A stretch of DNA of 64,000 bases from Minisyncoccota bacterium (GCA_040881175.1 JBBEDS010000014.1:23174-87173); one strand, 5' to 3'. Positions 22,362 through 60,070 are shown, counted from the stretch's first letter. Made by a program: numbers and translations. The notes: generated by a model from the sequence alone, not told the origin.

Positions 22362-22363
22362 AT

Positions 22364-28378: not shown

Positions 28379-28600
28379 TAAGTATGTGTATATACCTGTG
28401 AAATTAATGGTTATAAATTATTGATAAAAATTGGATAAGTCTAATTCTAAAAAAAATAAGATAATATTAACAAGTTTATAACAAATTAATTAACATACTT
28501 ATCTACAGCTTACTAAATAACTTCTACCGCAAAAAATATAGTTACTAATAATCTTTTACCACTTATACACACCTCTTATTATTACTAATTAATTATATAT
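28379..28600. other. putative oriC: AT-rich (about 80% AT) dnaA-dnaN intergenic region with DnaA boxes TTATCTACA, TTATACACA, TGGATAAG
   Basis: seen in sequence: 222-nt AT-rich spacer with at least 3 near-consensus DnaA boxes between dnaA and dnaN. Confidence 0.5.
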
Positions 28601-29689: not shown

Positions 29690-29697
29690 TAACTACC

Positions 29698-29982
29698 GTG
29701 GAAGATTTAAAAAGGAAATTAACTCAACTTAAGAGGGTTATAGCTTCTAAGGAAGAAGAAGATAAAAAACTGAGGACAGAACTTAAAGAAATAATCGAGA
29801 AGCTTTTTGACCAAGTAAAAACCCCGATGGAATTTATTCGGGGTTTTTACTTACAGGGTGACAGGCTAGTCATAAACACTAATAATAAATCTTTCGCTAA
29901 TGAACTTTTCTTAGTTAAGAACCAGTTGTTAGAAGGCCTTTGGGATAGAAAATTCGTGGTGAAAGAATTGGTTATTAAGTAA
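29698..29982 (+). CDS. DUF721/DciA-like small protein
   Basis: FIRGFYLQGDRLVINTNNKSFANELFLVKNQLLEGL matches the DUF721 motif; located after dnaN as in many bacteria. Confidence 0.5.
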   Translation: MEDLKRKLTQLKRVIASKEEEDKKLRTELKEIIEKLFDQVKTPMEFIRGFYLQGDRLVINTNNKSFANELFLVKNQLLEGLWDRKFVVKELVIK

Positions 29983-29984
29983 GA

Positions 29985-32153: not shown

Positions 32154-32165
32154 AAAACGGTCAAA

Positions 32166-32194
32166 TTTACAAGGCGAGGGAGAAGGGTTATAAT
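32166..32194 (+). promoter_or_regulatory. sigma70-like promoter TTTACA-N17-TATAAT upstream of tyrS
   Basis: seen directly; 19 nt upstream of tyrS ATG 32214. Confidence 0.45.
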
Positions 32195-32213
32195 TCAATA
32201 ATAACTCAATTTT

Positions 32214-41217: not shown

Positions 41218-41598
41218 ATGTTTACTTCAGCTAAATACTCTTATCTTGCTTTAAGACTAGGCCTGGCGGCCGTCTTTTTGTGGTTCGGTATCGACAAATT
41301 TTTTCACCCAGATTATTGGATTAATGCTTGGGTTACTCCCAGCGCAACTAGCTTGATTGAGCTGGCAGGTTTCTCGACCCAGCAGTTTATGTACCTTAAC
41401 GGTATATTCGAGATACTAGTTGGAGTCAGTTTAATAACTTCCATTTTCCCTAAATTCTTTTCACTGCTTGCCATTATATTCTTGGTAAGCGTCATCTTCT
41501 TCGTTGGCCTAAATGAGGTAGTAATAAGAGACATCGGCCTTATCGGTGGGTTTGTTGCGATCCTTCTTTGGCCAAACGAAAGGAGCAGGTTCTTCTAA
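41218..41598 (+). CDS. DoxX-family membrane protein
   Basis: SYLALRLGLAAVFLWFGIDKF DoxX N-terminal helix pattern, 4 TM; ATG 41218 preferred over TTG 41179. Confidence 0.7.
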   Translation: MFTSAKYSYLALRLGLAAVFLWFGIDKFFHPDYWINAWVTPSATSLIELAGFSTQQFMYLNGIFEILVGVSLITSIFPKFFSLLAIIFLVSVIFFVGLNEVVIRDIGLIGGFVAILLWPNERSRFF

Positions 41599-41602
41599 CG
41601 CG

Positions 41603-42601
41603 ATGCCCCTTTTAGGCAGAGACAATCTGGTAGGAGTAAGAGCGCCAGAGTTTAAGGATGGCATGGTTTGGCTCAACTCAAAGCCTTTGAAACTGGAAGA
41701 GCTTCTCAAGGAAGGCAAGGTCGTTATGATTGATTTCTGGACCTACTCCTGCATTAATTGCATACGCACTCTCCCGCATGTGGTAGGTTGGGCTAAAAAG
41801 TACAGGGATAAAGGATTGGTGATAGTCGGAGTACACACGCCTGAATTTGATTTTGAGAAAGAGAAATCAAATGTCGAGAAGGCAATAGCAGATTTTAGTA
41901 TAGAATACCCTGTTGTATTGGATAACGACTATGTCGTATGGAACTCGTATGCTAACCGCTATTGGCCCAGGAAATTAATAATTGGTAAAGACGGATCAAT
42001 AGTTTATGATCACGCTGGCGAAGGTAACTATGGAGAGACAGAGAAAAAAATACGTGAGCTGCTTAGTCTGGCAGACGATAACTCCATAGCTTCAGAAGAA
42101 GGAACAGGGGGAATATGTTACCCCACAACCCCAGAGATATATTTGGGTCACGAGAGAGGAACCTTGGGTAACGAAGAGGGTTTTAAGAAAGACCAGGCGT
42201 TTAAATATGAGATAAGCGACGACAACGACCGGGATAAATTCTACTTAAGAGGTGATTGGATTGCGGGCAGTCAATTTATAGAACACGCTGGGAAAGAAGG
42301 TAATCTTGATGATTTTGTCCAGTTGAACTTCTCAGCCCTCTCTGTTAATGTTGTCCTAGGTTCCAAAGATGGAGAGGTATATGAAGTGTTAGTCTCTCTC
42401 GACGGACAACCGCTGAGTAAAGAAATCGCTGGCGAGGATGTTAAGATAAAAGATGGAAAGAGCATACTAGAATTTAAGGCTGATAGGATGTATAACCTGA
42501 TAGATTCAAAAGAGTATTTAGATAATAGAAAATTAAAGTTATCAGTTAAATCAGATCAATTCCGCGCCTTTGCCTTTACCTTCGGTGCTTGTGCGCATTG
42601 A
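41603..42601 (+). CDS. thioredoxin-fold thiol-disulfide oxidoreductase (TlpA/DipZ-like) with C-terminal extra domain
   Basis: VVMIDFWTYSCINCIRTLPHV CxxC redoxin motif, GVHTPEF; about 180-aa C-terminal domain. Confidence 0.7.
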   Translation: MPLLGRDNLVGVRAPEFKDGMVWLNSKPLKLEELLKEGKVVMIDFWTYSCINCIRTLPHVVGWAKKYRDKGLVIVGVHTPEFDFEKEKSNVEKAIADFSIEYPVVLDNDYVVWNSYANRYWPRKLIIGKDGSIVYDHAGEGNYGETEKKIRELLSLADDNSIASEEGTGGICYPTTPEIYLGHERGTLGNEEGFKKDQAFKYEISDDNDRDKFYLRGDWIAGSQFIEHAGKEGNLDDFVQLNFSALSVNVVLGSKDGEVYEVLVSLDGQPLSKEIAGEDVKIKDGKSILEFKADRMYNLIDSKEYLDNRKLKLSVKSDQFRAFAFTFGACAH

Positions 42602-42611
42602 TCTAAATCTA

Positions 42612-43346
42612 ATGGAGGAAGAAAAAGAAGTAGTAGAAACTCACGAGGAAGCAGAAAATAAACCGGCCTATTTGCAGTTTGTTTTGCCGGGATCTATTCT
42701 GATTGCTGCGTTGTTAATATCAGGCACTTTAATCTTTACTCGCAACCAAGGAGGCGAACTGGCCCAGATAGGTAGCGGCGGTAATGGACAGATAGGCGGG
42801 CCTGTCGAGATAAATGTAAATTCTGACGACCACGTATTGGGAGATAAGGATGCCGAGGTGACAATAGTTGAATTCAGTGATTTCCAGTGTCCATTCTGCA
42901 GGGCTCTATGGAGCGGTGCGATAGAAGACATTAAGAGGGATTACATAGCCACAGGAAAGGCCAGGCTAGTGTATAAACACTATCCATTGGAAGATATTCA
43001 CCCTGGAGCTAGGCCGGCAGCTGAAGCTTCAGAATGTGCTGCTGAGCAAGGTAAGTTTTGGGAATACCATGACAAGATATTTGAGGAGCAGGAAAAGCTT
43101 GGACAGGGAACAGTTCCTTTTACTAGCCCAGATCTAAAGAAGTGGGCAGCCCAGATTGGTCTTGATTCGGGAGCATTTAATGGTTGTCTAGATTCAGCCA
43201 AATATGCAGACAAAGTAACGGATCATTTGAACCAGGGCATCTCCGCCGGAGTAAGCGGCACACCAGCAACCTATATTAACGGCAGACTAGTTCCCGGAGC
43301 TCAGTCCTATCAAACATTCAAAGCCGTGATCGACAGTTTCCTATAG
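42612..43346 (+). CDS. DsbA-family thiol:disulfide oxidoreductase with N-terminal membrane anchor
   Basis: TM anchor then EFSDFQCPFCRALW (CPFC active site) DsbA fold. Confidence 0.75.
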   Translation: MEEEKEVVETHEEAENKPAYLQFVLPGSILIAALLISGTLIFTRNQGGELAQIGSGGNGQIGGPVEINVNSDDHVLGDKDAEVTIVEFSDFQCPFCRALWSGAIEDIKRDYIATGKARLVYKHYPLEDIHPGARPAAEASECAAEQGKFWEYHDKIFEEQEKLGQGTVPFTSPDLKKWAAQIGLDSGAFNGCLDSAKYADKVTDHLNQGISAGVSGTPATYINGRLVPGAQSYQTFKAVIDSFL

Positions 43347-44926: not shown

Positions 44927-44993
44927 CAAGTATTTGCAGAAAAGCATCGGAATAGTACGCTGATCTTAGCTCTTCACACAATGAGGTGACACG

Positions 44994-45161
44994 ATGAAAG
45001 GCGACCATAAAGTTTGGAAAGATATAGGCAAACTTCCAGGCGGCGATCGAGATCCTTTTACGACGGCACCCGGTCCTACGAAAAATTGTTTGTCTTCCGA
45101 TCAAGTAGTTCCATTTGTTGGTAATAACGAAACCGACCAAAGTGTTGCTGTCCCATCTTAA
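44994..45161 (+). CDS. candidate small protein (55 aa) with strong SD, not in ORF track
   Basis: GAGGTGA SD 5 nt before ATG; MKGDHKVWKDIGKLPGGDRDPFTTAPGPTKNCLSSDQVVPFVGNNETDQSVAVPS; followed by two hairpins, the second with T-run. Confidence 0.3.
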   Translation: MKGDHKVWKDIGKLPGGDRDPFTTAPGPTKNCLSSDQVVPFVGNNETDQSVAVPS

Positions 45162-45283
45162 CCAATGCAGGTCCTGCCGTGAAAGAGGCAGGAACTTTAA
45201 AGCAGTGCGACGATCTCGCCTGTTTTTTAATCTGATAAGTTGACAGCAAGACTGCTATAAACCGGTGTGTAGATATGAATAGT

Positions 45284-45310
45284 AAAAGACCCGCAGTTTG
45301 CGGGTCTTTT
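45284..45310. terminator. bidirectional rho-independent terminator (serves minus-strand sortase operon end)
   Basis: AAAAGACCCGCAGTTTGCGGGTCTTTT. Confidence 0.7.
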
Positions 45311-45311
45311 A

Positions 45312-45929
45312 CTATTCTACGAGTTCTGCTTGAACTGCAATCCTTTTGTAGTTTGTACCAACTGGCCAGCAACTAAGCAAGACGACAGTATCTTTATCAC
45401 TCTTTTCTATCTCCTGTAGTCTCTCGTCGTTGGCGAAGGGGGAGAAGACAATAGCTTGCTTCATTGAATATACGAACCTACTGCCATCCGCGTATTCTAC
45501 GTAGAAGATATCTCCCGGTTGTAGTTTGCCCAGAAGGGCGAATACAGAACCGTAAGCTCCTTTATACCACGGATAAGCGGAGCTATGACCAAGAACTACA
45601 GATACACCGCCCTCTCCTGGTTTTGATGTATTAGAATAATGAACGGCGCCGTTCTCCAGGTTGTCGTATATTGCCTTTGTGTCGTCACCGACATTAAAAA
45701 CAATAGGAGCCCTAACGCCTAGGCTCTCTATTACGATGACAGCGTCATCCGGTAGATCTTTTTTCTCCGATTTAACCTCAGTTGTTATAAACCTGTTAAG
45801 AGAATACTGGTCCGTGCCAGTTAGTAGCCAGAACTTAACATTTGCCTCCACAAAACGGCTGTTCAAAACAGTAAATATCAAAGCAAAAGCTCCTAAAAAA
45901 ATTATTAGAAAACGGAATTTTAAATTCAT
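45312..45929 (-). CDS. sortase (transpeptidase) family protein
   Basis: N-terminal TM, catalytic His (VVLGHSSAY) and TLxTC-type Cys (VVLLSCWPVG), downstream Arg. Confidence 0.8.
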   Translation of the reverse strand: MNLKFRFLIIFLGAFALIFTVLNSRFVEANVKFWLLTGTDQYSLNRFITTEVKSEKKDLPDDAVIVIESLGVRAPIVFNVGDDTKAIYDNLENGAVHYSNTSKPGEGGVSVVLGHSSAYPWYKGAYGSVFALLGKLQPGDIFYVEYADGSRFVYSMKQAIVFSPFANDERLQEIEKSDKDTVVLLSCWPVGTNYKRIAVQAELVE

Positions 45930-45932
45930 ACG

Positions 45933-46829
45933 CTAGATAATTAATGCGGTTCTAGAGGCCTGAATCACAGGTATTAATACGGCCAGTAACAATATGGCGA
46001 AACTACCAGCGGTCCTAATGACCAACTCTTTTCTGGCACCTGCAAAGAGCATGTATGCCAAGGAGGCTAGGAAGATCGCCAGGGCATAGAATATGAGGGT
46101 CTTATTAAGAATCCCTGATACTCTTTGGACCTGAGGCGTTGAGCCGCTGACATCGACAGCGATGGGCGACTCTAAGGCTGGCGGCTGGTTTTCTGTGCTT
46201 GAGCCAACTACGGCGGCAGGACCTGTCATTTGCTGTGGTGTCGGAGAAGTTTGAGGCGTCTGTTGTATCGGTGTCGGAGTTGGTTCTCTTGGAGGCTGTG
46301 CTACAGCAACAACGTTAGGTCTTGGGGTGCCGAATAACTGCACTACGAGGAAGCCGTTGCTATTATCTATCTTTGCCGGAGCCACAGCTATGCCTACCTC
46401 CGTATATTTAGAGTTTAGTAGGTTCTCTCTATGAGATGGTGAATTTGCCCAAGCATCTACGGTTGATTCGGCACTTACGAATCCTATGGCCAAATTCTCA
46501 CCGGCATAGGTGTACTCATATTGGCTCTCATCAAACCAGTACCATGGAGAAACTCCCGAGGGGCTAGTATGGGCAAAGTACTGACCATTAACCATATCCT
46601 GCAGTTTCTTACTTGCGGCCTGATCCAGTACAGGATTTGCCCTTAATTCCTTAAGACCGAAAGATGAGCGAAAGATATTAGTTTGTGATACAACCTGGTC
46701 TTTAGTAAAACCAGCTACCCCGTCTATTATGTTTGCGAGTTGAAGGCCAGAGTATGAGAATACGGCCTTTACGAATACAAGAGCGATTAAGTTCCAGAAT
46801 ATGAACTTGTTAGTGTAGAGAAGCTTCAT
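45933..46829 (-). CDS. CAP/SCP/PR-1 superfamily protein with Pro/Thr-rich linker and C-terminal membrane anchor
   Basis: YFAHTSP, GENLA, WANSPSHRENLL, YTEVGIA motifs of bacterial CAP (YkwD-like) domain. Confidence 0.7.
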   Translation of the reverse strand: MKLLYTNKFIFWNLIALVFVKAVFSYSGLQLANIIDGVAGFTKDQVVSQTNIFRSSFGLKELRANPVLDQAASKKLQDMVNGQYFAHTSPSGVSPWYWFDESQYEYTYAGENLAIGFVSAESTVDAWANSPSHRENLLNSKYTEVGIAVAPAKIDNSNGFLVVQLFGTPRPNVVAVAQPPREPTPTPIQQTPQTSPTPQQMTGPAAVVGSSTENQPPALESPIAVDVSGSTPQVQRVSGILNKTLIFYALAIFLASLAYMLFAGARKELVIRTAGSFAILLLAVLIPVIQASRTALII

Positions 46830-46844
46830 TTTAAGGACAGCGTT

Positions 46845-49505
46845 TTAGCGCTGGGCAAAGTTGAATTTATCTTTATTTGAACGAAACTTTTTAACTACTG
46901 CCCATGCCTCACGTTGTCTGAATATTCCAGTTTTAGTATACCCCATATATACGAAGGTAACTAACGCACTAAGGAACAGTGAGAGCATTAAGCTGCCAGT
47001 TGTACCCGTAGATACACCAGCCACTCTGGCTATAGATGCGCCGGCTACTTGCGGGTTATTTGTCGTGGTAGATGTGCCAACATTGTTGGACACCGTTATG
47101 GGCATACTGGAGGTCGTCAGGGAGGAGTTGCTGGATCTTGCCTGAGCCACATTGGTAAATGTGGTCGTTCCAACAGGAAGCGCCGAGGATTGATTAACGG
47201 TTGCGTTAAGTTTTATGACAACCTCTTGGAATTGGAACAGGGAGCCTACGTTAAGACCGCCGCTATTAGTTATTCCGTCGGACCTTATGCTGCCGTTAAC
47301 ACTAGTTGTTCTGCTTATGTAGCTGAAACCTCCGGGCAAAAAGTCGTTAACTATTACATTATCAGCCCTTGTCGAGGAATTTGATCTAACCCTGATTACA
47401 AATTCAAGGGTGTCTCCGGGAGAGGCGGTTAAACTTGACTGCTCAACGTTGTCGCCTCGAGTAATATTTTTACCAAGTTTTTGAATAGATATCTGCGACA
47501 AAGGGTCATTGTTTGTGATTACGGTTGTTATGCTGTCTCGGGGTACATATACTATGGCCTGATCGGATACACTGGAGGTGTTAGATGAAGTGGCTCTAAA
47601 ATCTACGAAAGAGTTTGATCCGATAAAGTTTAAGAATAGCTGGTTGGGTACGGTAATTCTATACTTGATAGTCACGGAATTGCCAGGATTAATATTGCCC
47701 AAGTATATTCCTCCAGAAGATAAGATACTTCCAGAGTAAGACGATCCGTTTACAGTGGTGGAGTCATTAAAGTTTAGTCCGCTAGGCAAGAAGCTGGAAA
47801 CTCGTACGTCGGTCAAAGTAGAGTTGCCGCTTGTACCTAAGTAAGCAACCAGCTCCACGGTATCCCCAGGGAAAGCCTGTACTGTCTTGCTCTCGGAACC
47901 GCCACGACTCAAATTTCTGCCGTAGGCGTTTATATTCATAGACCTGAAGTCTCCAGTTGGAGTGGGTGTGGGATTTGGTGTCGGATTTGGTGTTGGATTC
48001 GGGGTAGGATTTGGAGTAGGTGTTGGTGACGGGTATATGCCAACTACAGTTGTATATGCTGAGACAACAAAGTTAACACAATTTCCATTGATGCACTTCG
48101 TGCCGGTCGCATTATTGGCCAGTATGGCTATTGGGGAAACGTCGTTGTTTATCCTGACCACGTATCTAAAGGTTTGAGGAGAGTTGGAATTTACAAATCT
48201 ATTTGACCAGGTGATTGTGTTTCCATTCACACTCCCGGAATTATTAAGGAAGTGGCTAAATGTCACGCCGTTCGGCAGTTGGTCTATGAGGTGGTTCAAC
48301 TCGAATGCATCCTGGTATCCTGGGACGGCAATCGTGTAGGTTATCTGATCTCCAACCAAAGCGACTGCTTTGTCGGCAGTTTTTGAGATACCACTAACAC
48401 TTACAACTGGTGTTGAGGTAGGGTTTGGAGTAGGGAATGGGGTCGGATTCGGTGTAGGGTAGGGTGTTGGGTTCGGGGTGGGTGATGAGCAATTTACGAC
48501 ATTGAAGTTTACCGTCTTGCTTATGTGGCCTATAGTAGCTGTTTTGGTCCAAGCACCAACGTCCGCTGATTTCCAAATGTATCCTTTGTCGCTCCAATAT
48601 CCGTTATTTACGAATTGGTTATAGCCAGACAACTTTTCTCCGGTAGAGCTTCCATTCCTAGTAGAAGACCAGAAGATCATCTTGCCGTTCAAGTCTGAGG
48701 ATGCATTGGAAACTGTATATGTAGATTGCGAACCAACGCAGACCGTCTGCGGATTAATCGAGAGATTAAATGAAGAGACCGTTGGTGTTGGTGTAGGAGT
48801 CGGGGTTGCTGCCGGCGGGCAGTATAGGTTAGAAGGCACGACTACCCAGACGTCATAGAGGTTTTTACTACCTCCATTTGAAATATCCCAAAGAGTAAAT
48901 CTGTAGTTCTTGCCACGATGCAACCAGGGCGTTTCGCCATCGCCGTTATTATGCAAAGCAAAAGTTTTTTCTATAAAAGTATCGGGGTCTCTGACAGTTA
49001 CCTTCGTCTTGTCTACATTTTGGGTGGTCCACTTGATAGTGGTATTGAACAAACATTGGCCAGGCAAGCGAGAGATGGAGCCGTCTTGCCAAATTTTACC
49101 GCTGGCGGAGGGAGAGGGGCAGACAATACTTTCAAGCTCAATCCAGGTATCGGAGAGCTTATCTTGCTTCCCATTCGAAACATCCCAGAGAGTAAAACGG
49201 TAGTTCTTACCAGGATGCAGCCATGGTGTTTCGCCTGTGCCATTGTTGTGCATGGCAAAAACCTTTTCTTGATTAGTGTCTGGATCTCTGACTGTGACCT
49301 TGGCTTGGTCTACATTCTGTGTGGACCAGCCTACTCTGCTGGTGTACAGACATTGATTCCCGATCTTCTCTACCAAGCTATCTTTCCATATTTGACCTGA
49401 GGGGGGTTGCGAGTTAGCAAAAACTGAACCGCCGAAAATGATTCCGGTGGTTATGACCGAGGTTACTAAGAATACTGCCAAAAAGATTCTTTTGTTCTTA
49501 TTCAT
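46845..49505 (-). CDS. large secreted surface protein (886 aa) with tandem about 95-aa N-terminal repeats, PT-rich linkers, DUF11-like repeat domains and C-terminal hydrophobic anchor
   Basis: Signal peptide; repeat unit WKDSLVEKIGNQCLY...VTVRDPDT..KVFAMHNNGTGETPWLHPGKNYRFTLWD present twice; (PTPN)n linkers; C-terminal GVSTGTTGSLMLSLFLSALVTFVYMGY + basic tail. Confidence 0.7.
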   Translation of the reverse strand: MNKNKRIFLAVFLVTSVITTGIIFGGSVFANSQPPSGQIWKDSLVEKIGNQCLYTSRVGWSTQNVDQAKVTVRDPDTNQEKVFAMHNNGTGETPWLHPGKNYRFTLWDVSNGKQDKLSDTWIELESIVCPSPSASGKIWQDGSISRLPGQCLFNTTIKWTTQNVDKTKVTVRDPDTFIEKTFALHNNGDGETPWLHRGKNYRFTLWDISNGGSKNLYDVWVVVPSNLYCPPAATPTPTPTPTVSSFNLSINPQTVCVGSQSTYTVSNASSDLNGKMIFWSSTRNGSSTGEKLSGYNQFVNNGYWSDKGYIWKSADVGAWTKTATIGHISKTVNFNVVNCSSPTPNPTPYPTPNPTPFPTPNPTSTPVVSVSGISKTADKAVALVGDQITYTIAVPGYQDAFELNHLIDQLPNGVTFSHFLNNSGSVNGNTITWSNRFVNSNSPQTFRYVVRINNDVSPIAILANNATGTKCINGNCVNFVVSAYTTVVGIYPSPTPTPNPTPNPTPNPTPNPTPTPTGDFRSMNINAYGRNLSRGGSESKTVQAFPGDTVELVAYLGTSGNSTLTDVRVSSFLPSGLNFNDSTTVNGSSYSGSILSSGGIYLGNINPGNSVTIKYRITVPNQLFLNFIGSNSFVDFRATSSNTSSVSDQAIVYVPRDSITTVITNNDPLSQISIQKLGKNITRGDNVEQSSLTASPGDTLEFVIRVRSNSSTRADNVIVNDFLPGGFSYISRTTSVNGSIRSDGITNSGGLNVGSLFQFQEVVIKLNATVNQSSALPVGTTTFTNVAQARSSNSSLTTSSMPITVSNNVGTSTTTNNPQVAGASIARVAGVSTGTTGSLMLSLFLSALVTFVYMGYTKTGIFRQREAWAVVKKFRSNKDKFNFAQR
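47955..48035. repeat. 12-nt periodic coding tandem repeat (GGATTTGGTGTC-like x about 6) encoding PNPT linker
   Basis: seen directly; second similar tract at 48421-48480. Confidence 0.6.
48840..49420. repeat. tandem about 290-nt intragenic duplication (about 80% identity) encoding the two N-terminal repeat domains of the surface protein
   Basis: protein-level duplication residues about 30-125 vs 130-222; corresponding DNA segments visibly similar. Confidence 0.5.
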
Positions 49506-49608
49506 AAGTGTTTATTGGTGAAAATAAAATAGCTTTATAAGCCATTTCGGATGGTATTATAATACCAGCATTTCTATATAAAGTCAAGAATTACGCAATT
49601 TTACCTAG

Positions 49609-49680: not shown

Positions 49681-49741
49681 GCTCAAAGACTGAACAAAAA
49701 TTAACAAAAATCCTGCCTTTAGGCAAGATTTTTGTCTGTCT

Positions 49742-50323
49742 TTAAGACTCCAGAATCTGTATTTTTACAGTTCTAATACCGAATTCAAGAGCACTTTCAC
49801 GATCTGGGAACCAGATATCTATCTTGTGCCAGTATCTGCGGTTCATACGGTCTTCAACAACGAAGATCTTATCACCGTAAATATCAGGAATTTTGATCTT
49901 AGTTCCGAAAGGCAAGAAGTTGGCAGCAATGATACCATCACGTACATATGTACCGCGAGCGGTAATAAACGGGGTATCGTCAGTCTGATCCGGAGTTGAG
50001 GAATAAGCGGTAGCAGGAATAGTCATCTCCCTAATGGTTATAACCTCTTTCTCCGTAGCAACCGGGGCAGTATATGGCAATATGAAGCCCTTGGCAGCTA
50101 CTATAGGGTTCAGGGTATTACCAGAAGTGCTTATCTCCGGCAAACGTAGGTCTGGGCCGACATAGCTAGCGTTGGAATCTGCCGTTTCAGAAGCATCCTT
50201 ATTAGACCCCCTAAACCAGTCAAAAAATCCGGCATTTGCATTCGATGTTGGAGCAATTTGGGCTATAATTACAAGCAGTAAAATGGCCGTAATTTGCTTA
50301 ATTTTCATAGTGTTTTTGTTCAT
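49742..50323 (-). CDS. 3D-domain (YuiC/MltA-like) cell-wall-associated protein
   Basis: Signal peptide; TAYSSTPDQTDDTPFITARGTYVRDGIIAANFLPFGTKIKIPDIYGDKIFVVEDRM matches 3D domain. Confidence 0.7.
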   Translation of the reverse strand: MNKNTMKIKQITAILLLVIIAQIAPTSNANAGFFDWFRGSNKDASETADSNASYVGPDLRLPEISTSGNTLNPIVAAKGFILPYTAPVATEKEVITIREMTIPATAYSSTPDQTDDTPFITARGTYVRDGIIAANFLPFGTKIKIPDIYGDKIFVVEDRMNRRYWHKIDIWFPDRESALEFGIRTVKIQILES

Positions 50324-51442: not shown

Positions 51443-52180
51443 TTAGACCTTTTTTTCAAGACTAAAGGCGTGAGATCGGAGATGGTCCTGGTATAGTTCA
51501 ATCCACTTTAGCACACGTTCTTTTAAGGCGCGGCTGCTTACTACGACAGTACAAACTCCATAAGAAAGTCTCTTTGTAGGATGGCGACCTTTTATGTAAA
51601 TTGACTTTTTAAATCTTTCCTGTGGGATTCCGGTAGTCTTGCTCCAAAAGTTTTTTTGAACGGAGTCGACTAAGTCCGGATAAAGTAAAAGCCAGGCGAA
51701 TATTTTGTCAGACTCTATGTTTAGTACATTTTTTAAAAAGAGATAGAAGATTTTTATCATCTCCGGTTCACTATTCCCGAGTCTTACCTGACTTGATTTT
51801 TTTTGTTTCTCGCCCTCTCCCCAGTAGAGCATTAACCCGGCCAGGAATAGGGGATCGTTTTTTAGTTCTGCAAACTCTTTTATAGCAGCTTCTCGATATT
51901 CTTCGTGCTTAATTCTCCAGCGTTCTCTGTTTGCTCGGGACATTAACTCTAACTGTTTGGGGTTAGACAAAGACACCTCTTTGGACAACCGGTTTTTAAT
52001 CTCTTGAGACCAGGGTTCGTTCTTAAACCAGCCAGCAAGTGTGCTGGTAGGAATTCCCAACTCTTTGTAGATTTTTTTATAACTTGTGCCTGCTCGGCGT
52101 AATTCTGTGGCTTTTTGCCTATCTTTTCTCATAAAGTGGATATTTCCGCAAACTCTTGTATCAATATATAGCTTTATCAT
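51443..52180 (-). CDS. HTH-domain protein of unknown function (possible degenerate LAGLIDADG-like / mobile-element relic)
   Basis: Start set at MIKLYIDTR (track ORF N-terminus overlaps tRNA-Phe); N-terminal transposase/resolvase-type HTH (ELRRAGTSYKKIYKELGIPTSTLAGWF); FLAGLMLYWGEGEK motif faintly resembling LAGLIDADG. Confidence 0.45.
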   Translation of the reverse strand: MIKLYIDTRVCGNIHFMRKDRQKATELRRAGTSYKKIYKELGIPTSTLAGWFKNEPWSQEIKNRLSKEVSLSNPKQLELMSRANRERWRIKHEEYREAAIKEFAELKNDPLFLAGLMLYWGEGEKQKKSSQVRLGNSEPEMIKIFYLFLKNVLNIESDKIFAWLLLYPDLVDSVQKNFWSKTTGIPQERFKKSIYIKGRHPTKRLSYGVCTVVVSSRALKERVLKWIELYQDHLRSHAFSLEKKV

Positions 52181-52223
52181 AACACGGGGTTCGGTTTTTG
52201 TGGTTAAAGCTGTGGATAATACA

Positions 52224-52245
52224 AAACGGCCTTTAGGCCGTTTTG
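52224..52245. terminator. perfect hairpin CAAAACGGCC-TTTA-GGCCGTTTTG between HTH gene and tRNA-Phe
   Basis: seen directly. Confidence 0.45.
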
Positions 52246-52257
52246 TATTATAACGTG

Positions 52258-52329
52258 TGCCGCGGGGGTGAATCGAACACCCGACGCCATCCTCTTCAGG
52301 GATGCGCTCTACCACTGAGCTACCGCGGC
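52258..52329 (-). tRNA. tRNA-Phe (anticodon GAA)
   Basis: Reverse strand GCCGCGG-TA-GCTCAGTGGTAGAGC...CTGAAGA...GGTGTTCGATTCACC...CCGCGGC-A. Confidence 0.9.
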
Positions 52330-55092: not shown

Positions 55093-56907
55093 CTATGTTA
55101 TTAAAGCGTAGAACTCTTTTTGCTCCAGAGTTTCCTTGGAGATAAGCTCTTTGGCAATTTTGTCCAGAGTTTTTACTTTTTTGCCCAGAATCTCTTTGGC
55201 TTTTTTCATTGCTCTTGAAAGCAAGCCATGAATCTCGCTGTCTATCTTAAATGCGATCTCGTTGGAATAATTTTTATCTGAGCCTATCTCTTTGCCCAAG
55301 AAAACCAGTTCTTCTTTTTCACCAAATACAACTGGGCCGAGTTTGTCGGACATTCCATATTGAGTGACCATCTTGCGAGCCAGGTCCGAGGCAACCTTCA
55401 GGTCGTTGGATGCTCCGGTAGTCAGTTCTTTGAATACCAGACGTTCAGCTGTATAACCGCCGAGAAGTACGGCCAGCTCAGCTTCGAACTCTGACTTTGA
55501 GCGTAAGTGCTTGTCTTCCGTAGGTAATTTAAGGGTGTATCCACCAGCGCGTCCGCGCGATACTATGGAGACTTTGTGGACCGGATCTGTATGTGGCATA
55601 GAGACAGCGACAAGGGCATGACCAGCTTCGTGATATGCAGCTATCTTTTTCTCTTCTTTAGAGAAGGCATGAGAGCGTCTTTCCGGACCCAGCATTACTT
55701 TCTCTAAGGCTTCTAGTAGGTTGTCTTGATTTATCTGCTTCTGATTTTTCCTAGCAGCAAGTATAGCCGCTTCGTTTATTAAATTAGCCAAGTCAGCACC
55801 AGAAAACCCTGGGGTTCTCTCGGCAACTAGTCGCATATTAACCTCTTTCATCAGGGGCTTGTCTGTAGCATGTATTCTCAATATGGCCTCTCTATCTTTC
55901 ATTGATGGCTCATCTAGTATTATCCGTCTGTCGAAGCGTCCCGGTCTAAGAAGAGCGGGGTCCAATATATCCGGACGGTTGGTTGCCGCCATGACAATTA
56001 TTGCATCGTTGGTGGCGAAGCCGTCCATCTCAACCAATATTTGGTTAAGTGTCTGTTCTCTCTCATCGTGTCCGCCGCCAAGACCCGCTCCGCGGTGGCG
56101 ACCGACTGCATCAATCTCATCAACAAAGATTATTGAAGGCGCGGTTTTCTTGGCGACCTCAAATGTATCTCTGACTCGGTTGGCACCGACTCCGACGAAC
56201 ATCTCTACGAATTCGGAACCCGAGACGAAGTAGAATGGGACGTTAGCCTCATTAGCCACTGCTTTGGCTAGCAGTGTCTTACCTGTGCCGGGGGAGCCTA
56301 TCAGAAGAATGCCTCGAGGAATTCGGGCTCCCAGTTTCTGGAATCTCTTAGGATCGCGGAGGAATTCCACGACCTCAGATATTTCTTCCTTAGCTTCGGT
56401 TAAACCGGCAACATCTTTGAAAGTAAGCTTTTTTTTGCCGTTACCGTCGGCCAGCTTAGCTCTTGATTTACCGAAAGTGAAGGCCTGCATTGATCCTCGC
56501 TGTGCTTGGCGGAACATGAACCAGAACAGGAATATGATTAGCAGAAATGGCAGAAGGAAAGGCAAAAAGTTGGCCAGGTAAAATCCAAAGCCCGATTCAT
56601 CCTGTATATCTAGGTTAACTTCTTTTAATCTTTCTTGCTCGACTCCGAGGTTGACCAGGGTCTCGCTAACTGAAGTTCCTGGTTCTCTCTTTGATTCTTC
56701 CTTCTCATCGTTTTTTAACGTGATCTCCAGCTTTTCTCCGCGTACAACGACCTCTTTAACCTCAGATTGATTGATCTGGTTAACTAGGGTTGTGAGTGAG
56801 ACCTCATTTGGTGTTTCGCCAAACGGTGAGTTAAACAGGGCGACGAAACCAGACAAAACCAGAAGTATTAAAAAGACTATTAGAATATATTTTGCGAGTG
56901 ATTTCAT
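55093..56907 (-). CDS. ftsH: ATP-dependent zinc metalloprotease FtsH
   Basis: N-terminal TM pair, AAA+ [17 protein letters not shown] zinc-binding motif. Confidence 0.95.
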
Positions 56908-56951
56908 GGAGCTAAATTAACATAAAAAATGTGGTGCGACAATATTTAGGT

Positions 56952-57000
56952 AAAAAAAGTGCCCCGACTCAAATCACTTGCGTGACTATATTGTCGGGGC
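56952..57000 (-). terminator. rho-independent terminator (minus strand) between SHOCT-domain gene and ftsH
   Basis: inverted repeat GCCCCGAC...GTCGGGGC (8 bp) with T-run on minus strand (plus A-run 56952-56958). Confidence 0.5.
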
Positions 57001-57047
57001 TGGGTCGGTGAAAGGATAGTGTGAGAACCACTTCCACCGGTTGGTTG

Positions 57048-58445
57048 TTAGGAGAGTAGGGCCTTCATCTCCTTGTAGTCGGCGGCATCGATCTCACCCT
57101 TCGCGAAGCGTCGGGCGAGCGCCTTGAGCTCTTCGTTGCCGGAAGTCGCCTGGCCTTCGGTGGCCGGCGCCGCAACCTCTTCGTGCTCTTTGGCGACGCC
57201 ATTGGCGTGACCGTTGGGTTGGACTTCAGCCAGTTTCGGCTGCTCGCTTTCAGCGGCTTGCTTTCGCTCCGCCTCGGCTCGCAGATGATCGGCCCTTTCC
57301 CGCTTGTTCTTCGCCTTGGTCGCGAACGACTGTGCACCGGAATAGTTCTTCGCGGCGACAGCTTCCGTTTCTTTGGCATCAAGCTCGGCCGCTTCGGCCT
57401 CGAGAGACTCCGGCGTTTCCGCCGGGATCACCTTGACCTCCAGCCCGCGCTCCTTCAGAGAAGTAGGAGACTCTTGGCCGTCCTCGTCCTCAATGGAAGC
57501 GCTGGTGGTTACCTTCAGCGGCTCTGCGTTCGCTTCTTCGGCAATGATAGCCTTCTGGGCTTCCGCCAGCTCAGTTTCGAGCTTGTCGGCATCGACTCTG
57601 AGGCGTTTGGCCATCTTCTGGCAGCTACCAGCCTTTTCGTAGTCGCCGGCTGCGGCGGCTGTGTCGGCGTCGGCCTGTTTCTGCTCGGCTTCTGCGCGCA
57701 GGCTTTCGGGAGTGTCCTGCTCTTCTTGCTCTTCGGGTTCCGAAAAGGCCATATTGGCCTCGTCGTCGACCTCTTCTCCGGCTTTGCGCCGTTGCTGATT
57801 CCTGGTAATTCGGTCGATGGTGTCTTGCACCAGTGCGACGTCGGCCAGGATGTGGTTGTAGTCCTTACTCGCTTCGCTTTGATCTGCGAGCCTCTTGAGG
57901 AAGTCGTCGCCTTCCATGTCGGCTTCGGTTTTGATCGTTTGCTTGTACTCAATGTCACCCAAAGCTTCGTTGGCGGCAGCCACCATCTTGAGTCGACCGT
58001 CGAGGTCGGGACGCAGGCCAGCCCGATTCGTGAACCTTACCAGGCGGATCCAGGCTGAGAAGAAGGGAGCGTTCCAGGGGAACAGCGCCCACATGACGTT
58101 CTCGGCGAAGTCCTTCACACCACCGGTCTTGGCGGGGAAGTACATGCCTTTGAGCAGTCCAAAGTTCTGGACGTGCCGGAGGTACTTCTGCTGAAGCTGA
58201 CGGTCGAGGGTTCTGACCTCTTTCCGCAATCCTTCCAGCTCTTTCAGACCTTCCGGAGAGAGCTGACGGTCGTCGCCCTGCTCGTTCGTGATTTTCCAGG
58301 CCTTCCGAATGAGAGAAGCAAGGACTTTGTCTTCCACCATCGGAACTTTGCTTCCGCGGGTGAAATTCTGGCTCCTCTCACCACTGGCGACCTGAGGTTT
58401 GTCTGAGCCGTCTTCATGACGGCGTCGAACGTTCTTATTGGCCAT
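57048..58445 (-). CDS. hypothetical protein (465 aa) with N-terminal unknown domain, Ala/Glu-rich coiled-coil linker and C-terminal SHOCT-like motif; 60-65% GC
   Basis: C-terminus LKALARRFAKGEIDAADYKEMKALLS resembles SHOCT; strong GC skew relative to neighbours; all six frames open (GC artefact ORFs). Confidence 0.55.
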   Translation of the reverse strand: MANKNVRRRHEDGSDKPQVASGERSQNFTRGSKVPMVEDKVLASLIRKAWKITNEQGDDRQLSPEGLKELEGLRKEVRTLDRQLQQKYLRHVQNFGLLKGMYFPAKTGGVKDFAENVMWALFPWNAPFFSAWIRLVRFTNRAGLRPDLDGRLKMVAAANEALGDIEYKQTIKTEADMEGDDFLKRLADQSEASKDYNHILADVALVQDTIDRITRNQQRRKAGEEVDDEANMAFSEPEEQEEQDTPESLRAEAEQKQADADTAAAAGDYEKAGSCQKMAKRLRVDADKLETELAEAQKAIIAEEANAEPLKVTTSASIEDEDGQESPTSLKERGLEVKVIPAETPESLEAEAAELDAKETEAVAAKNYSGAQSFATKAKNKRERADHLRAEAERKQAAESEQPKLAEVQPNGHANGVAKEHEEVAAPATEGQATSGNEELKALARRFAKGEIDAADYKEMKALLS

Positions 58446-58684
58446 TTCTTGGCCCTCCTGTTGTCAAAGATTAGTACAGCGAAAATGCTCTCGAGAGCGC
58501 ATTCTCGCCATCCGGTATTAATATATCAGATGGCTTGACTAATGTCAATAACATAAGTATAGTATTGGAAAGTTAGGAAATAGGCCTTTTAAAATTAATT
58601 GCTACAAGACGGGCCTACTATTAATACATAGCCGACCTATTTTGTAGCAATTTTTAATATCAAAATATGCAGAGGAGGAATTAG

Positions 58685-60070
58685 ATGGTTAAGGTAACCA
58701 CTTTAGGCGGAAGCTCGGGTTTGAGAAGTATCGGCCCCAGCTGTTACGTGGTCGACATTGATGACAAAAGGATCATTGTCGATTGCGGTATTGAGCCAAC
58801 ATTACGGGGGTTCATTCCTCCGAATCTCGACTATCTGAGAGACGGCAAACTGATTGATGCGGTCTGCCTAACACACGGACACGTAGACCATATCGCTTAC
58901 ACTCCAGCCCTTATCCCTTTCATGAAGCCGGATGCGAAAGTATTCATGACTCCACAGACGGCTCAAACGTCATCGTACGTCATTGAAGAACAATTCAAAT
59001 TCGGCATCAGGGTCAAAGACCTTCCGTTCAGTATGCTCGACATGTTCGAGTTCGTTCAAGAAAGGATTTCGATTATTGAGAGGCCGGGGGTTATTGAAAT
59101 TCTGGATGGAATCAGCGCCTACGCCCATCCGGTCGGACATATTCCCGGAGCATGCGGTTTCATCTTCAAACTGCCTGATGGCCGCAAGATGATGATCTCT
59201 GGAGACATGAGCTGGCACAACCAGCCGACAGTCCTCGGTTATCAGCCCATGCCCGATGAGTGGAAGCCCGAAATTCTTGCAGGAATTGATCTGACCGGCG
59301 TAACGGTTGAGAAAAATCCGTCCTGGGAGCTTGAGGCTGACAGGATGGGCAGGGATGTCAGAGAGGTCATGGAAAATGGCGGCTCTGTAGCGATCGCAGC
59401 TTTTGCCAATAACAAGAGCCAATGCGTAGTGTCAGCTCTTCATCAAAGAGGGGTCACCTCATACATGGAGGAAGGATCTGCTGCTACCATTGCTCGCATT
59501 CTGAGTAGGAACAAATGGTCTGACAACGATGTTCTCTTTGACCTCGGTCAGCTTAAAATGATTGAGGACTTCCATCACCGGCGCTATCTAATGGGCCAGA
59601 AAGAGCCGAAAGTGGTAACTTCGCCTTCAGGCATGTGCATAGGCGGCCACATCAGAGAGTGGCTTGAGGTGATCCTGCCGGATCCCAACGCTGCTCTATT
59701 CTTTGCTGGATTTGTCGCCGAAGACAGCAACGGCGGGCGAATTATCAACGCCAAGGAACAAGGCAAAGAAGAGGTCACCCTTGTAGACAACAACGGCTTT
59801 GGCGGTGAAATGGAAACTTTGCCGCTCAGGTGCAGGATAGGGAAGTACAAGCTGACCTCTCATGGCGATGGTCAGAGCATCTTCAACTGGATCGAGCAGA
59901 TCGATCCGCAGATAATTAACCTGACCCACGGGACTCCGGCCGGTAAACTCTATGCGGCCTCGAGACTCCTCAAGAGGAACAGAAAGATCTTTATGAACGT
60001 CGGTCGCCACAAGGTGAGAACGACGAGGGAAATTAATATCAAAGTCCAGCAGTTTGCTCTGCAAACTTAG
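58685..60070 (+). CDS. metallo-beta-lactamase-fold protein, beta-CASP-like (putative nucleic-acid hydrolase)
   Basis: HGHVDH (HxHxDH) motif, further His/Asp ligands, 461 aa; GGAGG SD before ATG. Confidence 0.7.
   Translation: MVKVTTLGGSSGLRSIGPSCYVVDIDDKRIIVDCGIEPTLRGFIPPNLDYLRDGKLIDAVCLTHGHVDHIAYTPALIPFMKPDAKVFMTPQTAQTSSYVIEEQFKFGIRVKDLPFSMLDMFEFVQERISIIERPGVIEILDGISAYAHPVGHIPGACGFIFKLPDGRKMMISGDMSWHNQPTVLGYQPMPDEWKPEILAGIDLTGVTVEKNPSWELEADRMGRDVREVMENGGSVAIAAFANNKSQCVVSALHQRGVTSYMEEGSAATIARILSRNKWSDNDVLFDLGQLKMIEDFHHRRYLMGQKEPKVVTSPSGMCIGGHIREWLEVILPDPNAALFFAGFVAEDSNGGRIINAKEQGKEEVTLVDNNGFGGEMETLPLRCRIGKYKLTSHGDGQSIFNWIEQIDPQIINLTHGTPAGKLYAASRLLKRNRKIFMNVGRHKVRTTREINIKVQQFALQT

What the first reader, a model, noticed from the sequence alone, without database searches (positions are those of the whole stretch)
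45312..49505. Surface-display operon: 886-aa repeat-rich secreted protein, CAP-domain protein and sortase
Three co-directional minus-strand genes end at a strong bidirectional terminator. The large protein has a signal peptide, a tandemly duplicated about 95-aa domain, (PT/PN)n linkers encoded by 12-nt DNA repeats, DUF11-like repeat domains and a C-terminal hydrophobic anchor with basic tail but no canonical LPxTG (VAGVSTGTTG instead). That suggests a non-canonical sorting signal for the adjacent sortase. The CAP (PR-1/YkwD-like) protein also has a PT linker and a C-terminal anchor. This is a plausible host or cell-attachment module. The coding tandem repeats could allow length variation.
Basis: partly seen in the sequence, partly recalled or inferred. 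Interest (0 to 1): 0.5.

Follow-up and report, generated by a model that had tools for sequence, protein, structure and literature searches.

The report
Patescibacterial sortase operon with VxTG-anchored adhesin
An ultrasmall (CPR/Patescibacteria) bacterium carries a three-gene operon for a long bead-on-a-string surface protein, a membrane-bound CAP-domain protein and an unclassified sortase, and comparison with about 60 related loci indicates that this sortase family recognises a [V/I]-x-T-G signal instead of the classical LPXTG.

Summary
Three tightly packed minus-strand genes run from a sigma-70-like promoter to a perfect 19-bp hairpin terminator: an 886-aa secreted repeat protein, a 298-aa CAP protein and a 205-aa sortase. 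The organism is a Paceibacterota/Yanofskybacteria-like CPR bacterium.

The sortase has the fold and an invariant His115-Cys187-Arg196 triad. It falls far below every curated class cutoff (A-F, GN).

In 54 related genome loci the sortase is flanked on the same strand by one to six large Ig-like-domain proteins, many with CLIPPER/DUF11 domains. Their C-termini share [V/I]-x-T-G-[P/T/A]-x-[D/E], a TM helix, an invariant Tyr, an Arg-rich stretch and a conserved tail. T is kept in 59 of 60 tails and G in 60 of 60. The window's VSTG is the local form.

A profile of this tail finds 259 protein clusters among 1.84 billion, always at the extreme C-terminus. Three of four such proteins traced back lie next to a sortase.

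A CAP protein with three TM helices precedes the sortase in 33 of 54 loci. Its role is unknown.

I rate it a new variant of a known kind, of moderate interest. Cleavage and the acceptor remain untested.

The parts
49559..49587 (-). sigma-70-like promoter (TTGACT, 17 nt, TATTAT, with TG) between tRNA-Arg and the first gene
   Evidence: Consensus scan, 10 of 12 matches; sequence. This is a consensus match only.
46845..49505 (-). 886-aa secreted fibrillar surface protein, the predicted sortase substrate. Order of parts: signal peptide, X, X, PT linker, Y, PT/PN linker, CLIPPER1, PT/PN linker, CLIPPER2, CLIPPER3, S/T-rich stalk, sorting signal.
   Evidence: ORF. DUF11/CLIPPER 83.9 bits against a cutoff of 24.6, and TIGR01451. 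PDB 9IFR (a CLIPPER domain) is the best solved match to CLIPPER3, E 0.0016.
49413..49505 (-). signal peptide (residues 1-31, MNKNKRIFLAVFLVTSVITTGIIFGGSVFA/NS)
   Evidence: Read from the translation: basic n-region, hydrophobic core, VFA-N site. No predictor was run.
48810..49409 (-). tandem duplicate of a ~97-aa domain 'X' (residues 33-131 and 134-232), each closed by a Cys pair (52/129 and 151/229)
   Evidence: 57 of 96 aa identical. AF2 model with Ig/FnIII-like beta-sandwiches. Only 3 homologous proteins among 5.8 billion. Absent from the orthologous gene in L001.
48486..48779 (-). domain 'Y' (residues 243-340, Cys 256/339), a third Ig-like sandwich
   Evidence: AF2 model. Present in two copies in the L001 orthologue.
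48408..48485 (-). PT/PN linker 2 (residues 341-366), encoded by 12/24-nt tandem repeats
   Evidence: TRF 48417-48483; regex on the translation.
47955..48035 (-). PT/PN linker 3 (residues 491-517), encoded by 12/36-nt tandem repeats
   Evidence: TRF 47956-48028. The corresponding linker is about 100 aa in L001.
47106..48407 (-). three CLIPPER/DUF11 stalk domains (about residues 367-490, 518-655 and 656-800)
   Evidence: Pfam PF01345, three stretches, best 691-793. The domain boundaries are approximate.
47004..47015 (-). predicted sortase recognition motif V831-S-T-G834; cleavage is expected between T833 and G834
   Evidence: Family profile of 60 non-redundant tails: V/I 57 of 60, T 59 of 60, G 60 of 60. 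The motif is retained in distant loci.
46848..46994 (-). TM helix (residues 838-856, ending in the invariant Tyr), then YTKTGIFRQRE and a 30-aa basic cytoplasmic tail ending FNFAQR
   Evidence: the profile match is always at the extreme C-terminus.
45933..46829 (-). 298-aa membrane protein: N-terminal TM (about 9-27), extracytoplasmic CAP/SCP domain (48-164; window 46338-46688), Pro/Thr/Gln-rich linker, and two C-terminal TM helices (about 237-255 and 267-290)
   Evidence: PF00188 62.2 bits against a cutoff of 21.1. Best PDB match 4ifa. The architecture is kept in 36 non-redundant sortase-linked homologues, with H87, E111 and H133 conserved in at least 35 of the 36.
45312..45929 (-). 205-aa sortase with an N-terminal TM anchor (3-22), a second helix (24-36) and a catalytic domain (about 60-205) with H115, C187 (codon 45369-45371) and R196
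   Evidence: PF04203 72.8 bits against a cutoff of 26.6. The triad is invariant in 19 homologues. AF2 pLDDT 82, and Foldseek hits to sortases at about 1e-11.
45277..45317 (.). bidirectional intrinsic terminator (perfect 19-bp stem, 3-nt loop) overlapping the sortase stop codon
   Evidence: -30.8 kcal/mol, z = -7.9.

Best explanation
This is a dedicated sortase-substrate operon of a Paceibacterota/Yanofskybacteria-like CPR bacterium.

Proposed mechanism:
1. The 886-aa protein is exported by Sec (inferred from the signal peptide).
2. It folds outside the cell into six Ig-like domains, X-X-Y-CLIPPER x3, joined by PT/PN linkers. Four Cys pairs probably form disulfides.
3. It is held in the membrane by its C-terminal helix and Arg/Lys-rich stop-transfer segment.
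4. The co-transcribed, N-terminally anchored sortase (Cys187/His115/Arg196) recognises V-S-T-G. This is the local form of the family-wide [V/I]-x-T-G-[P/T/A]-x-[D/E] signal.
5. It cuts between Thr833 and Gly834 and transfers the Thr carboxyl to an amine nucleophile. The most likely acceptor is the lipid II or peptidoglycan stem peptide, since the genome encodes a class A PBP.
6. The result is a covalently wall-anchored fibril whose variable N-terminal tip mediates attachment.

The CAP/three-TM protein is a conserved membrane partner of this sortase family. I infer, weakly, that it positions the sortase or its substrate at sites of wall synthesis.

Shown: gene structure, domains, catalytic residues, conservation of the cassette and of the signal, and reciprocal linkage of signal and sortase. 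Inferred: cleavage site, acceptor, CAP role and adhesive function.
For: Domains and operon structure.

Sortase: fold and invariant H/C/R.

Cassette conservation: it recurs in different genomic contexts. In a survey of 54 GTDB loci, all from Patescibacteria, 71 tail-bearing ORFs were found, all co-oriented with and adjacent to the sortase, one to six per locus.

Motif statistics: V/I 57 of 60, T 59 of 60, G 60 of 60, P 38 of 60, D/E 49 of 60, post-TM Tyr 60 of 60.

Motif persistence: loci with sortases only 35-41% identical keep the motif (IKTG, VKTG, VQTG, VITG, VATG) while the cytoplasmic tail changes.

Exhaustive profile search: 259 clusters at E <= 1e-3, with the match always at the extreme C-terminus. 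Their cargo is surface-type Ig-like modules: CLIPPER 21 of 62, PKD, fn3.

Reciprocal check: 3 of 4 tail proteins lie beside a PF04203 gene.

Only one sortase and one tail protein occur in the 64-kb window, and they are in the same operon. A class A PBP is in the window.

Precedent: a sortase cutting T|G in a V-P-T-G type motif is documented for S. pyogenes Spy0129 (PMC3019223).
Against: - There is no biochemical evidence for cleavage or for the acceptor.
- The window's signal is an atypical member of its own family: T instead of P after the Gly, and G instead of D/E at +3.
- The long, conserved cytoplasmic tail is not expected for a peptide that is discarded after cleavage. It could mean the C-terminus stays attached and has its own function.
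- The CAP gene is missing from a whole sub-clade of otherwise similar loci, so it is not obligatory.
- The envelope chemistry of these organisms is unknown.
- I could not scan whole genomes, so other sortases or unlinked substrates cannot be excluded.
Confidence: 0.65

Rival explanations
1. The sortase is a polymerase rather than a wall-anchoring enzyme. It would join the [V/I]xTG threonine of one subunit to a lysine of another, or to the CAP protein, building a covalent pilus or fibril as class C and S. pyogenes class B pilus sortases do.
For: The nearest solved structures and NCBIfam models are pilus-specific class C sortases. Many related loci carry 3-6 tandem substrates beside one sortase, like pilus islands. 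Of 62 tail-bearing proteins, 8 hit the RrgB pilin isopeptide-domain model. The V-P-T-G type motif is the one used by S. pyogenes pilins (PMC3019223).
Against: The margin over class D, E and A structures is small, and all class scores are about 50 bits against cutoffs of about 160. The sortase has no DP[WFY] lid and no C-terminal TM helix. The window operon has a single substrate. There is no YPKN pilin motif in it, and only 3 of 61 relatives contain YPK.
Confidence: 0.15
2. The C-terminus is a permanent transmembrane anchor with a functional cytoplasmic tail. It is not cleaved, and the sortase acts on other, unlinked proteins.
For: The cytoplasmic tail is unusually long and conserved (invariant Tyr, RRRE, FNF or DFRS endings), unlike classical sorting signals. 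No LPXTG profile matches.
Against: The most conserved extracytoplasmic residues are exactly a T-G dipeptide at the position of a sortase site. The motif is retained when the tail is replaced. Linkage to the sortase holds in both directions. No alternative LPXTG-type substrate was found in the window.
Confidence: 0.12
3. The adjacency is incidental. The three genes are functionally unrelated neighbours in a compact genome.
For: CPR genomes are gene-dense, and many unrelated genes are co-directional.
Against: The same order recurs in loci with unrelated flanks and across sortases down to 32% identity. The intergenic gaps are 3 and 15 nt.
Confidence: 0.02

Closest known systems
Classical LPXTG / sortase A cell-wall anchoring of Gram-positive bacteria
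   Same: Tripartite C-terminal signal (short motif ending in T-G, hydrophobic helix, basic residues). Membrane-anchored Cys-His-Arg transpeptidase with the sortase beta-barrel. Substrates are signal-peptide-bearing surface proteins built from Ig-like modules.
   Different: The motif is [V/I]-x-T-G, with no conserved Leu or Pro. The cytoplasmic tail is long and conserved. The enzyme fails every curated class model and has S-C-[W/Y]-P instead of TLxTC. The sortase is encoded with its substrates rather than acting as an unlinked housekeeping gene.
S. pyogenes pilus sortase Spy0129 (class B) with (E/Q/V)(V/P)PTG pilin signals (PMC3019223)
   Same: The recognition motif has Val in place of the LPXTG proline position, and cleavage is between T and G. 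Of the 60 CPR tails, 14 read V-P-T-G. Enzyme and substrates are clustered, and the substrates contain isopeptide-type Ig-like domains.
   Different: There is no detectable class B relationship (no class B hit). The x position is free here (Q, P, S, A or K). No pilin-motif lysine was identified.
Dedicated sortase-substrate pairs, e.g. oral-streptococcal SrtB-AbpA (PMC4974636) and the 'class GN/marine' sortase with its single target (TIGR03784; the target is recalled from memory)
   Same: A specialised sortase encoded next to its own substrate, which carries a private variant of the sorting signal.
   Different: A different enzyme clade, a different motif and a different lineage (Patescibacteria). 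There is also an additional conserved CAP-domain membrane partner.
Actinobacterial housekeeping sortase with its linked small membrane protein SafA (PMC9282373)
   Same: A conserved membrane protein genetically coupled to a sortase gene. This is a precedent for a non-substrate accessory factor.
   Different: SafA is a small TM protein with an FPW motif. Here the partner is a ~300-aa protein with an extracytoplasmic CAP domain and three TM helices. No homology between them was shown.
Fibrillar adhesins with CLIPPER (DUF11) stalks (bioRxiv 10.1101/2025.04.25.650565; PDB 9IFR)
   Same: Signal peptide, N-terminal variable domains, tandem CLIPPER Ig-like stalk domains and a C-terminal sorting domain. 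CLIPPER3 aligns to 9IFR across the catalytic-Asp region (VND). CLIPPER1 has a short Cys-x4-Cys loop reminiscent of the C-T-T-C motif of 9IFR.
   Different: Whether the Lys-Asn isopeptide forms here was not established. The sorting domain is the Patescibacteria-specific one.

Membership tests
Sortase superfamily (PF04203 / TIGR01076) | Profile score above the curated cutoff | tested here: met
   PF04203 72.8 bits against 26.6; TIGR01076 44.7 against 39.35.
Sortase superfamily (PF04203 / TIGR01076) | Catalytic His-Cys-Arg triad | tested here: met
   H115, C187 and R196 are invariant in 19 homologues at 52-82% identity.
Sortase superfamily (PF04203 / TIGR01076) | Eight-stranded beta-barrel sortase fold | tested here: met
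   AF2 model pLDDT 81.9. All of the top 50 Foldseek PDB hits are sortases, E down to 7e-12, with core rmsd 2.4-3.4 A over about 150 residues.
Sortase superfamily (PF04203 / TIGR01076) | Transpeptidase activity on a sorting signal | not testable with these tools
   Needs a biochemical assay.
Class C (pilus-specific) sortase | NCBIfam NF033745 score of at least 160 bits | tested here: not met
   49.1 bits. The best E-value among 19 family members is 1.2e-13.
Class C (pilus-specific) sortase | N-terminal lid with a DP[W/F/Y] motif, and a C-terminal TM helix | tested here: not met
   There is no DP[WFY] between the TM helix and beta1. The protein ends 2-3 residues after the last strand.
Class C (pilus-specific) sortase | Substrates carry a pilin motif (YPKN lysine) | tested here: not met
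   Absent from the window protein. YPK occurs in 3 of 61 related substrates.
Sortase classes A, B, D, E, F, GN | Curated class model reaches its cutoff (140-166 bits) | tested here: not met
   Class D (NF033746) 35.8, LPxTATN-specific SrtD (NF058671) 37.1, class F 35.2, class E 31.5, class GN 23.3 bits. No class A or class B model appears among the hits at E <= 0.1.
LPXTG cell-wall sorting signal (PF00746 / TIGR01167) | L-P-x-T-G pentapeptide | tested here: not met
   The window has G-V-S-T-G. The family consensus is x-[V/I]-x-T-G.
LPXTG cell-wall sorting signal (PF00746 / TIGR01167) | T-G scissile pair, then a hydrophobic helix, then basic residues at the extreme C-terminus | tested here: met
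   T 59 of 60, G 60 of 60, an ~18-aa hydrophobic block, then [R/K]R[R/H]. Always C-terminal among the 150 best hits listed.
LPXTG cell-wall sorting signal (PF00746 / TIGR01167) | Match to the curated profile | tested here: not met
   No hit for the window protein or for 62 other tail-bearing proteins.
LPXTG cell-wall sorting signal (PF00746 / TIGR01167) | Cleavage and amide linkage to peptidoglycan | not testable with these tools
   The only supporting context is a class A PBP in the window.
CLIPPER / DUF11 (PF01345) | Profile score above the cutoff | tested here: met
   83.9 bits against 24.6, three stretches; TIGR01451 45.6 against 24.
CLIPPER / DUF11 (PF01345) | Lys-Asp-Asn intramolecular isopeptide triad | tested here: inconclusive
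   Only the Asp region of CLIPPER3 aligns to 9IFR. The Lys and Asn partners are plausible by eye in CLIPPER1 and CLIPPER3 but not in CLIPPER2. No coordinates were available.
CAP / SCP superfamily (PF00188) | Profile score above the cutoff, and conserved His/Glu core residues | tested here: met
   62.2 bits against 21.1. H87, E111 and H133 are conserved in at least 35 of 36 homologues.
YkwD subfamily (TIGR02909) and DalA (NF052539) | Curated cutoffs (171 and 200 bits) | tested here: not met
   92.5 and 42.2 bits.

The most novel reading that the evidence does not exclude
This operon would represent a previously undescribed, Patescibacteria-wide sortase class. The class would have its own sorting signal: [V/I]-x-T-G, a TM helix ending in an invariant Tyr, and a conserved cytoplasmic tail. 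It would also have a dedicated CAP-domain, three-TM membrane partner that is mechanistically required, for example as an adaptor to wall-synthesis sites, a substrate chaperone or even the acceptor. Together these would assemble the variable-tip fibrils by which ultrasmall episymbionts attach to their hosts. The conserved tail would then be a second recognition or regulatory element with no counterpart in Gram-positive sorting.
Probability: 0.3. Interest if true: 0.7.

Novelty: new variant of a known kind. Interest (0 to 1): 0.5.

Why it matters
More than half of CPR genomes encode a sortase (PMC6744442). In the literature I could search, neither the substrates nor the sorting signal of these enzymes are described. 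They appear only in passing mentions.

Defining the [V/I]xTG tail gives a simple sequence handle for listing the covalently displayed surface proteome of Paceibacteria-type organisms. These organisms are thought to live attached to other cells.

The orthologous gene in a close relative has swapped its N-terminal domains and tripled a PT linker. That is the pattern expected for a host- or surface-contact protein under diversifying pressure.

The recurrent CAP-sortase pairing is a concrete, testable lead for the function of bacterial CAP/SCP domains, which is still poorly understood. One member, DalA, binds peptidoglycan (PMC10470522).

Tried and rejected
- The generic terminator scan did not flag the operon terminator. 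It was found by the inverted-repeat search and by folding.
- A PDB sequence search with the whole 886-aa protein gave only a low-complexity PT-linker match to internalin K. It was discarded.
- A word-indexed search with the N-terminal 310 aa gave only 3 homologues.
- A word-indexed search with the 43-sequence tail alignment gave only 5 fragments. The exhaustive HMM search was needed instead.
- The Foldseek search of the N-terminal model returned only generic FnIII/Ig arrays and no specific ligand-binding fold.
- I looked for the Gram-positive pilin motif YPKN and found essentially none.
- I looked for strain-level repeat variation. The only other assembly of this population (L061) is 99.98% identical with no indels, and its contig breaks inside the X-X duplication.
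- P0200 was not on record. The contig of P0253 was too short to show a sortase.
- A regex screen in distant loci produced one false positive, in L054.
- A literature search for CPR sortase signals found only passing mentions.
- I considered an exosortase-, archaeosortase- or rhombosortase-type signal. I rejected it because the linked enzyme is a PF04203 sortase in all 61 loci of the first survey.

Full report
**Observation**

- The genes are separated by 15 nt and 3 nt.
- A sigma-70-like promoter, TTGACT-17-TATTAT, sits at 49587-49559 between tRNA-Arg and the first ATG.
- A perfect 19-bp inverted repeat with a 3-nt loop at 45277-45317 overlaps the sortase stop codon.
- As RNA that repeat folds at -30.8 kcal/mol, z = -7.9 against shuffles. 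Its GC core is flanked by an A-run and a T-run, so it can terminate transcription from both sides.
- Pfam gives DUF11/CLIPPER (1.4e-23, three stretches), CAP (1.1e-16) and Sortase (2.8e-20).
- The duplicated ~97-aa domain is real, with 57 of 96 residues identical.
- The PT/PN linkers are 12-nt tandem repeats at 47956-48028 and 48417-48483.

**Organism**

The sortase is 100% identical to one annotated in a 'Candidatus Paceibacterota' MAG. Its closest relatives are Yanofskybacteria and Paceibacterota. The MAG contig L061 is 99.98% identical to the window with no indels.

The window also holds dnaA and dnaN, a class A PBP (transglycosylase plus transpeptidase), a TraG-like ATPase and a DsbA-like protein. 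The organism therefore builds peptidoglycan from lipid II, the usual sortase acceptor.

**The sortase**
- His115, Cys187 and Arg196 are invariant in 19 homologues of 52-82% identity. So are F11, F19, N23, R25 and F26 in and just after the N-terminal TM helix.
- The catalytic-Cys motif is [L/V][I/V]SC[W/Y]P rather than TLxTC.
- An AlphaFold2 model (pLDDT 81.9) shows the TM helix, a second helix and a beta-barrel.
- Foldseek finds only sortases. Class C enzymes come first (4g1j, 6ixz, 2w1k, 2xwg; about 1e-11), but classes D, E and A follow within two orders of magnitude.
- No NCBIfam class model is satisfied. The best is class C at 49 bits against a cutoff of 160. No class A or class B model appears among the hits. 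The same holds for all 19 homologues.
- There is no DP[WFY] lid and no C-terminal TM helix.
- It is a sortase, but not a member of any curated class.

**Conservation of the cassette**

Look-ups of three homologues showed CLIPPER protein, CAP, sortase in the same order but in unrelated neighbourhoods. Two of those loci have a second large CLIPPER protein just downstream.

A scan of one genome per GTDB species returned 54 loci. All are Patescibacteria: Yanofsky-, Portnoy-, Brenner-, Berkel- and Peribacteria, Paceibacterota and Minisyncoccia.

I called ORFs in all loci and searched them with small HMMs.
- A profile of six C-terminal tails recovered 71 ORFs. Every one is on the sortase strand and beside it, with one to six per locus.
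- A CAP-protein profile recovered a CAP gene next to the sortase in 33 of the 54 survey loci. These include sortases only 32-41% identical to the window's.
- A sub-clade lacks the CAP gene: L011, L013, L016-18, L021-26 and L028-33.

**The sorting signal**

I aligned the 60 non-redundant tails to the profile.

| Feature | Count or form |
|---|---|
| V or I, two residues before the Thr | 57 of 60 |
| Next position (x) | free (Q, P, S, A or K) |
| Thr | 59 of 60 |
| Gly | 60 of 60 |
| Residue after the Gly | P 38, T 9, A 7 |
| D or E at +3 | 49 of 60 |
| Hydrophobic helix | about 18 residues |
| Tyr after the helix | 60 of 60 |
| Segment after the Tyr | T[R/H][T/S]..[F/Y][R/K]R[R/H]E |
| Tail ending | FNF or DFRS |

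The window's G-V-S-T-G-T-T-G-S is the form typical of its immediate clade.

In distant CAP-sortase loci (L036, L039, L040, L043, L045, L047) the large protein downstream of the sortase keeps VLGA[A/S]T-[V/I]xTG plus a TM helix. Its cytoplasmic tail is different. The element common to the whole family is therefore the [V/I]xTG motif at the outer face of the membrane, where a sortase site lies.

An exhaustive HMMER search of 1.84 billion cluster representatives, using a tail profile, found 259 proteins at E <= 1e-3 and 170 at E <= 1e-10. The match was always at the extreme C-terminus.

Sixty-two of these proteins carry surface-type modules: CLIPPER 21, PKD 10, fn3 5 and the RrgB-type isopeptide domain 8. 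None matches a known sorting-signal profile.

Going back from four such proteins to their contigs, three lie directly beside a PF04203 gene. The fourth contig is too short to tell.

Within the 64-kb window there is one sortase and one tail-bearing ORF, in the same operon.

**The substrate protein**

The order of parts is: signal peptide, two X domains, Y domain, CLIPPER1, CLIPPER2, CLIPPER3, an S/T-rich segment, then the signal.
- Cys pairs at 52/129, 151/229 and 256/339 bracket the three N-terminal domains. A C-x4-C loop lies in CLIPPER1.
- The N-terminal 310 residues have only three homologues in 5.8 billion proteins.
- They model as three Ig/FnIII-like sandwiches (pLDDT 76).
- CLIPPER3 aligns to the solved CLIPPER domain 9IFR around its catalytic Asp. 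The isopeptide triad was not verified.

The syntenic relative L001 is 73-79% identical at the DNA level across 38-56 kb. Its orthologous gene has the form SP, Y, Y, an ~100-aa PT linker, CLIPPER2, CLIPPER3 and the tail. The X domains and CLIPPER1 are missing and Y is duplicated, yet the C-terminal 373 aa are 76% identical. This is domain-cassette and linker-length variation at one locus.

**The CAP protein**

All 36 non-redundant sortase-linked homologues share one architecture: an N-terminal TM helix, a CAP domain, a variable Pro-rich linker and two C-terminal TM helices. In the window protein the short loop between those two helices is basic. H87, E111 and H133 are conserved in at least 35 of the 36.

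It has no [V/I]xTG motif, so it is not a substrate. Its best solved relatives are uncharacterised Gram-positive SCP proteins.

Two published cases offer analogies only. The CAP-type lipoprotein DalA binds peptidoglycan and co-localises with wall-synthesis enzymes (PMC10470522). Actinobacterial SrtA is protected by a linked membrane protein, SafA (PMC9282373).

**Mechanism and rivals**

My preferred reading (confidence 0.65) is Sec export, membrane retention by the C-terminal helix, cleavage between Thr833 and Gly834 by the co-encoded sortase, and transfer to the wall. The CAP protein would be an accessory factor.

| Rival | Confidence | Main point for | Main point against |
|---|---|---|---|
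| Polymerisation into a pilus-like fibril | 0.15 | class C-like similarity and multi-substrate loci | no lid, no pilin motif, a single substrate here |
| Uncleaved TM anchor | 0.12 | oddly conserved tail | T-G conservation and reciprocal linkage to the sortase |
| Chance adjacency | 0.02 | dense genome | recurrence across 54 loci |

**Comparison and novelty**

The system works like LPXTG/sortase anchoring. By motif it most resembles the (E/Q/V)(V/P)PTG signals cut by the S. pyogenes class B pilus sortase (PMC3019223). The enzyme fails every class test, and the signal fails the LPXTG profile and pentapeptide tests.

Sortases are known to be common in CPR (PMC6744442). I found no description of their signal, their substrates or the CAP pairing in the searchable literature.

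I rate it a new variant of a known kind, with interest 0.5. It is useful for predicting the displayed surface proteome of episymbiotic ultrasmall bacteria, and it offers a lead on bacterial CAP domains. It is mechanistically an extension of a well-known paradigm and is untested biochemically.

Noticed in passing
window 27011-29689 and the GC dip at 28001-30000: dnaA (27011-28378) and dnaN (28601-29689) lie next to the lowest-GC segment of the window (0.33). This is probably the chromosomal replication origin.
   Followed up: partly
window 29985-32198 (-): A class A penicillin-binding protein (transglycosylase plus transpeptidase). It shows the organism polymerises lipid II, which bears on the sortase acceptor.
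   Followed up: partly
window 15182-23446: A TraG-like P-loop ATPase (19940-21700) is flanked by large ORFs without Pfam hits (15182-17509, 775 aa; 22364-23446, 360 aa). This may be a type IV secretion or conjugation-like cluster of the kind reported for Patescibacteria.
   Followed up: no
window 41546-43346 (+): An AhpC/thioredoxin-like protein and a DsbA-like oxidoreductase lie 2 kb from the sortase operon, with synteny kept in L001, L002 and L061. The substrate has four Cys pairs, so an extracytoplasmic disulfide-forming partner (MdbA-like, as discussed for CPR in PMC6744442) is plausible.
   Followed up: partly
window 44928-45276: An ORF-poor spacer of about 350 nt lies between tRNA-Lys and the terminator. 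It has no Rfam hit and no DNA conservation with the otherwise syntenic relative L001.
   Followed up: partly
window 49742-50323 (-): A 193-aa secreted protein lies just upstream, with its own hairpin terminator (49703-49736). A protein of the same length sits at the same position in L001. It has no significant Pfam or NCBIfam hit. Its C-terminal part looks, from memory, like a 3D/DPBB-type wall-binding domain.
   Followed up: no
window 51443-52315 (-): A 290-aa ORF whose 5' end overlaps tRNA-Phe (52257-52329). It contains a LAGLIDADG-like string (FLAGLMLYWGEGEK) but has no Pfam hit at 1e-5. It sits within a run of seven tRNA genes (49.6-54.6 kb).
   Followed up: no
window 56001-60000: GC rises to 0.50-0.53, against about 0.43 elsewhere. 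The 465-aa ORF at 57048-58445 (-) has no Pfam hit, and a long antisense ORF overlaps it.
   Followed up: no
L011, L013, L022-L026, L028, L063: CAP-less relatives carry arrays of 3-6 tandem tail-bearing proteins around one sortase. There are two tail subtypes per locus: the upstream gene ends ...NF[S/L/V]K and the downstream genes end ...DFRS. Several have TSP3-like DxDxDG repeats just before the signal.
   Followed up: partly
L036-L058 CAP proteins, N-termini: Distant CAP homologues begin with a conserved cytoplasmic motif (F-[F/I]-P-x4-N-x3-P-x2-L-R-P) before the first TM helix. It is absent from the window's CAP protein.
   Followed up: no
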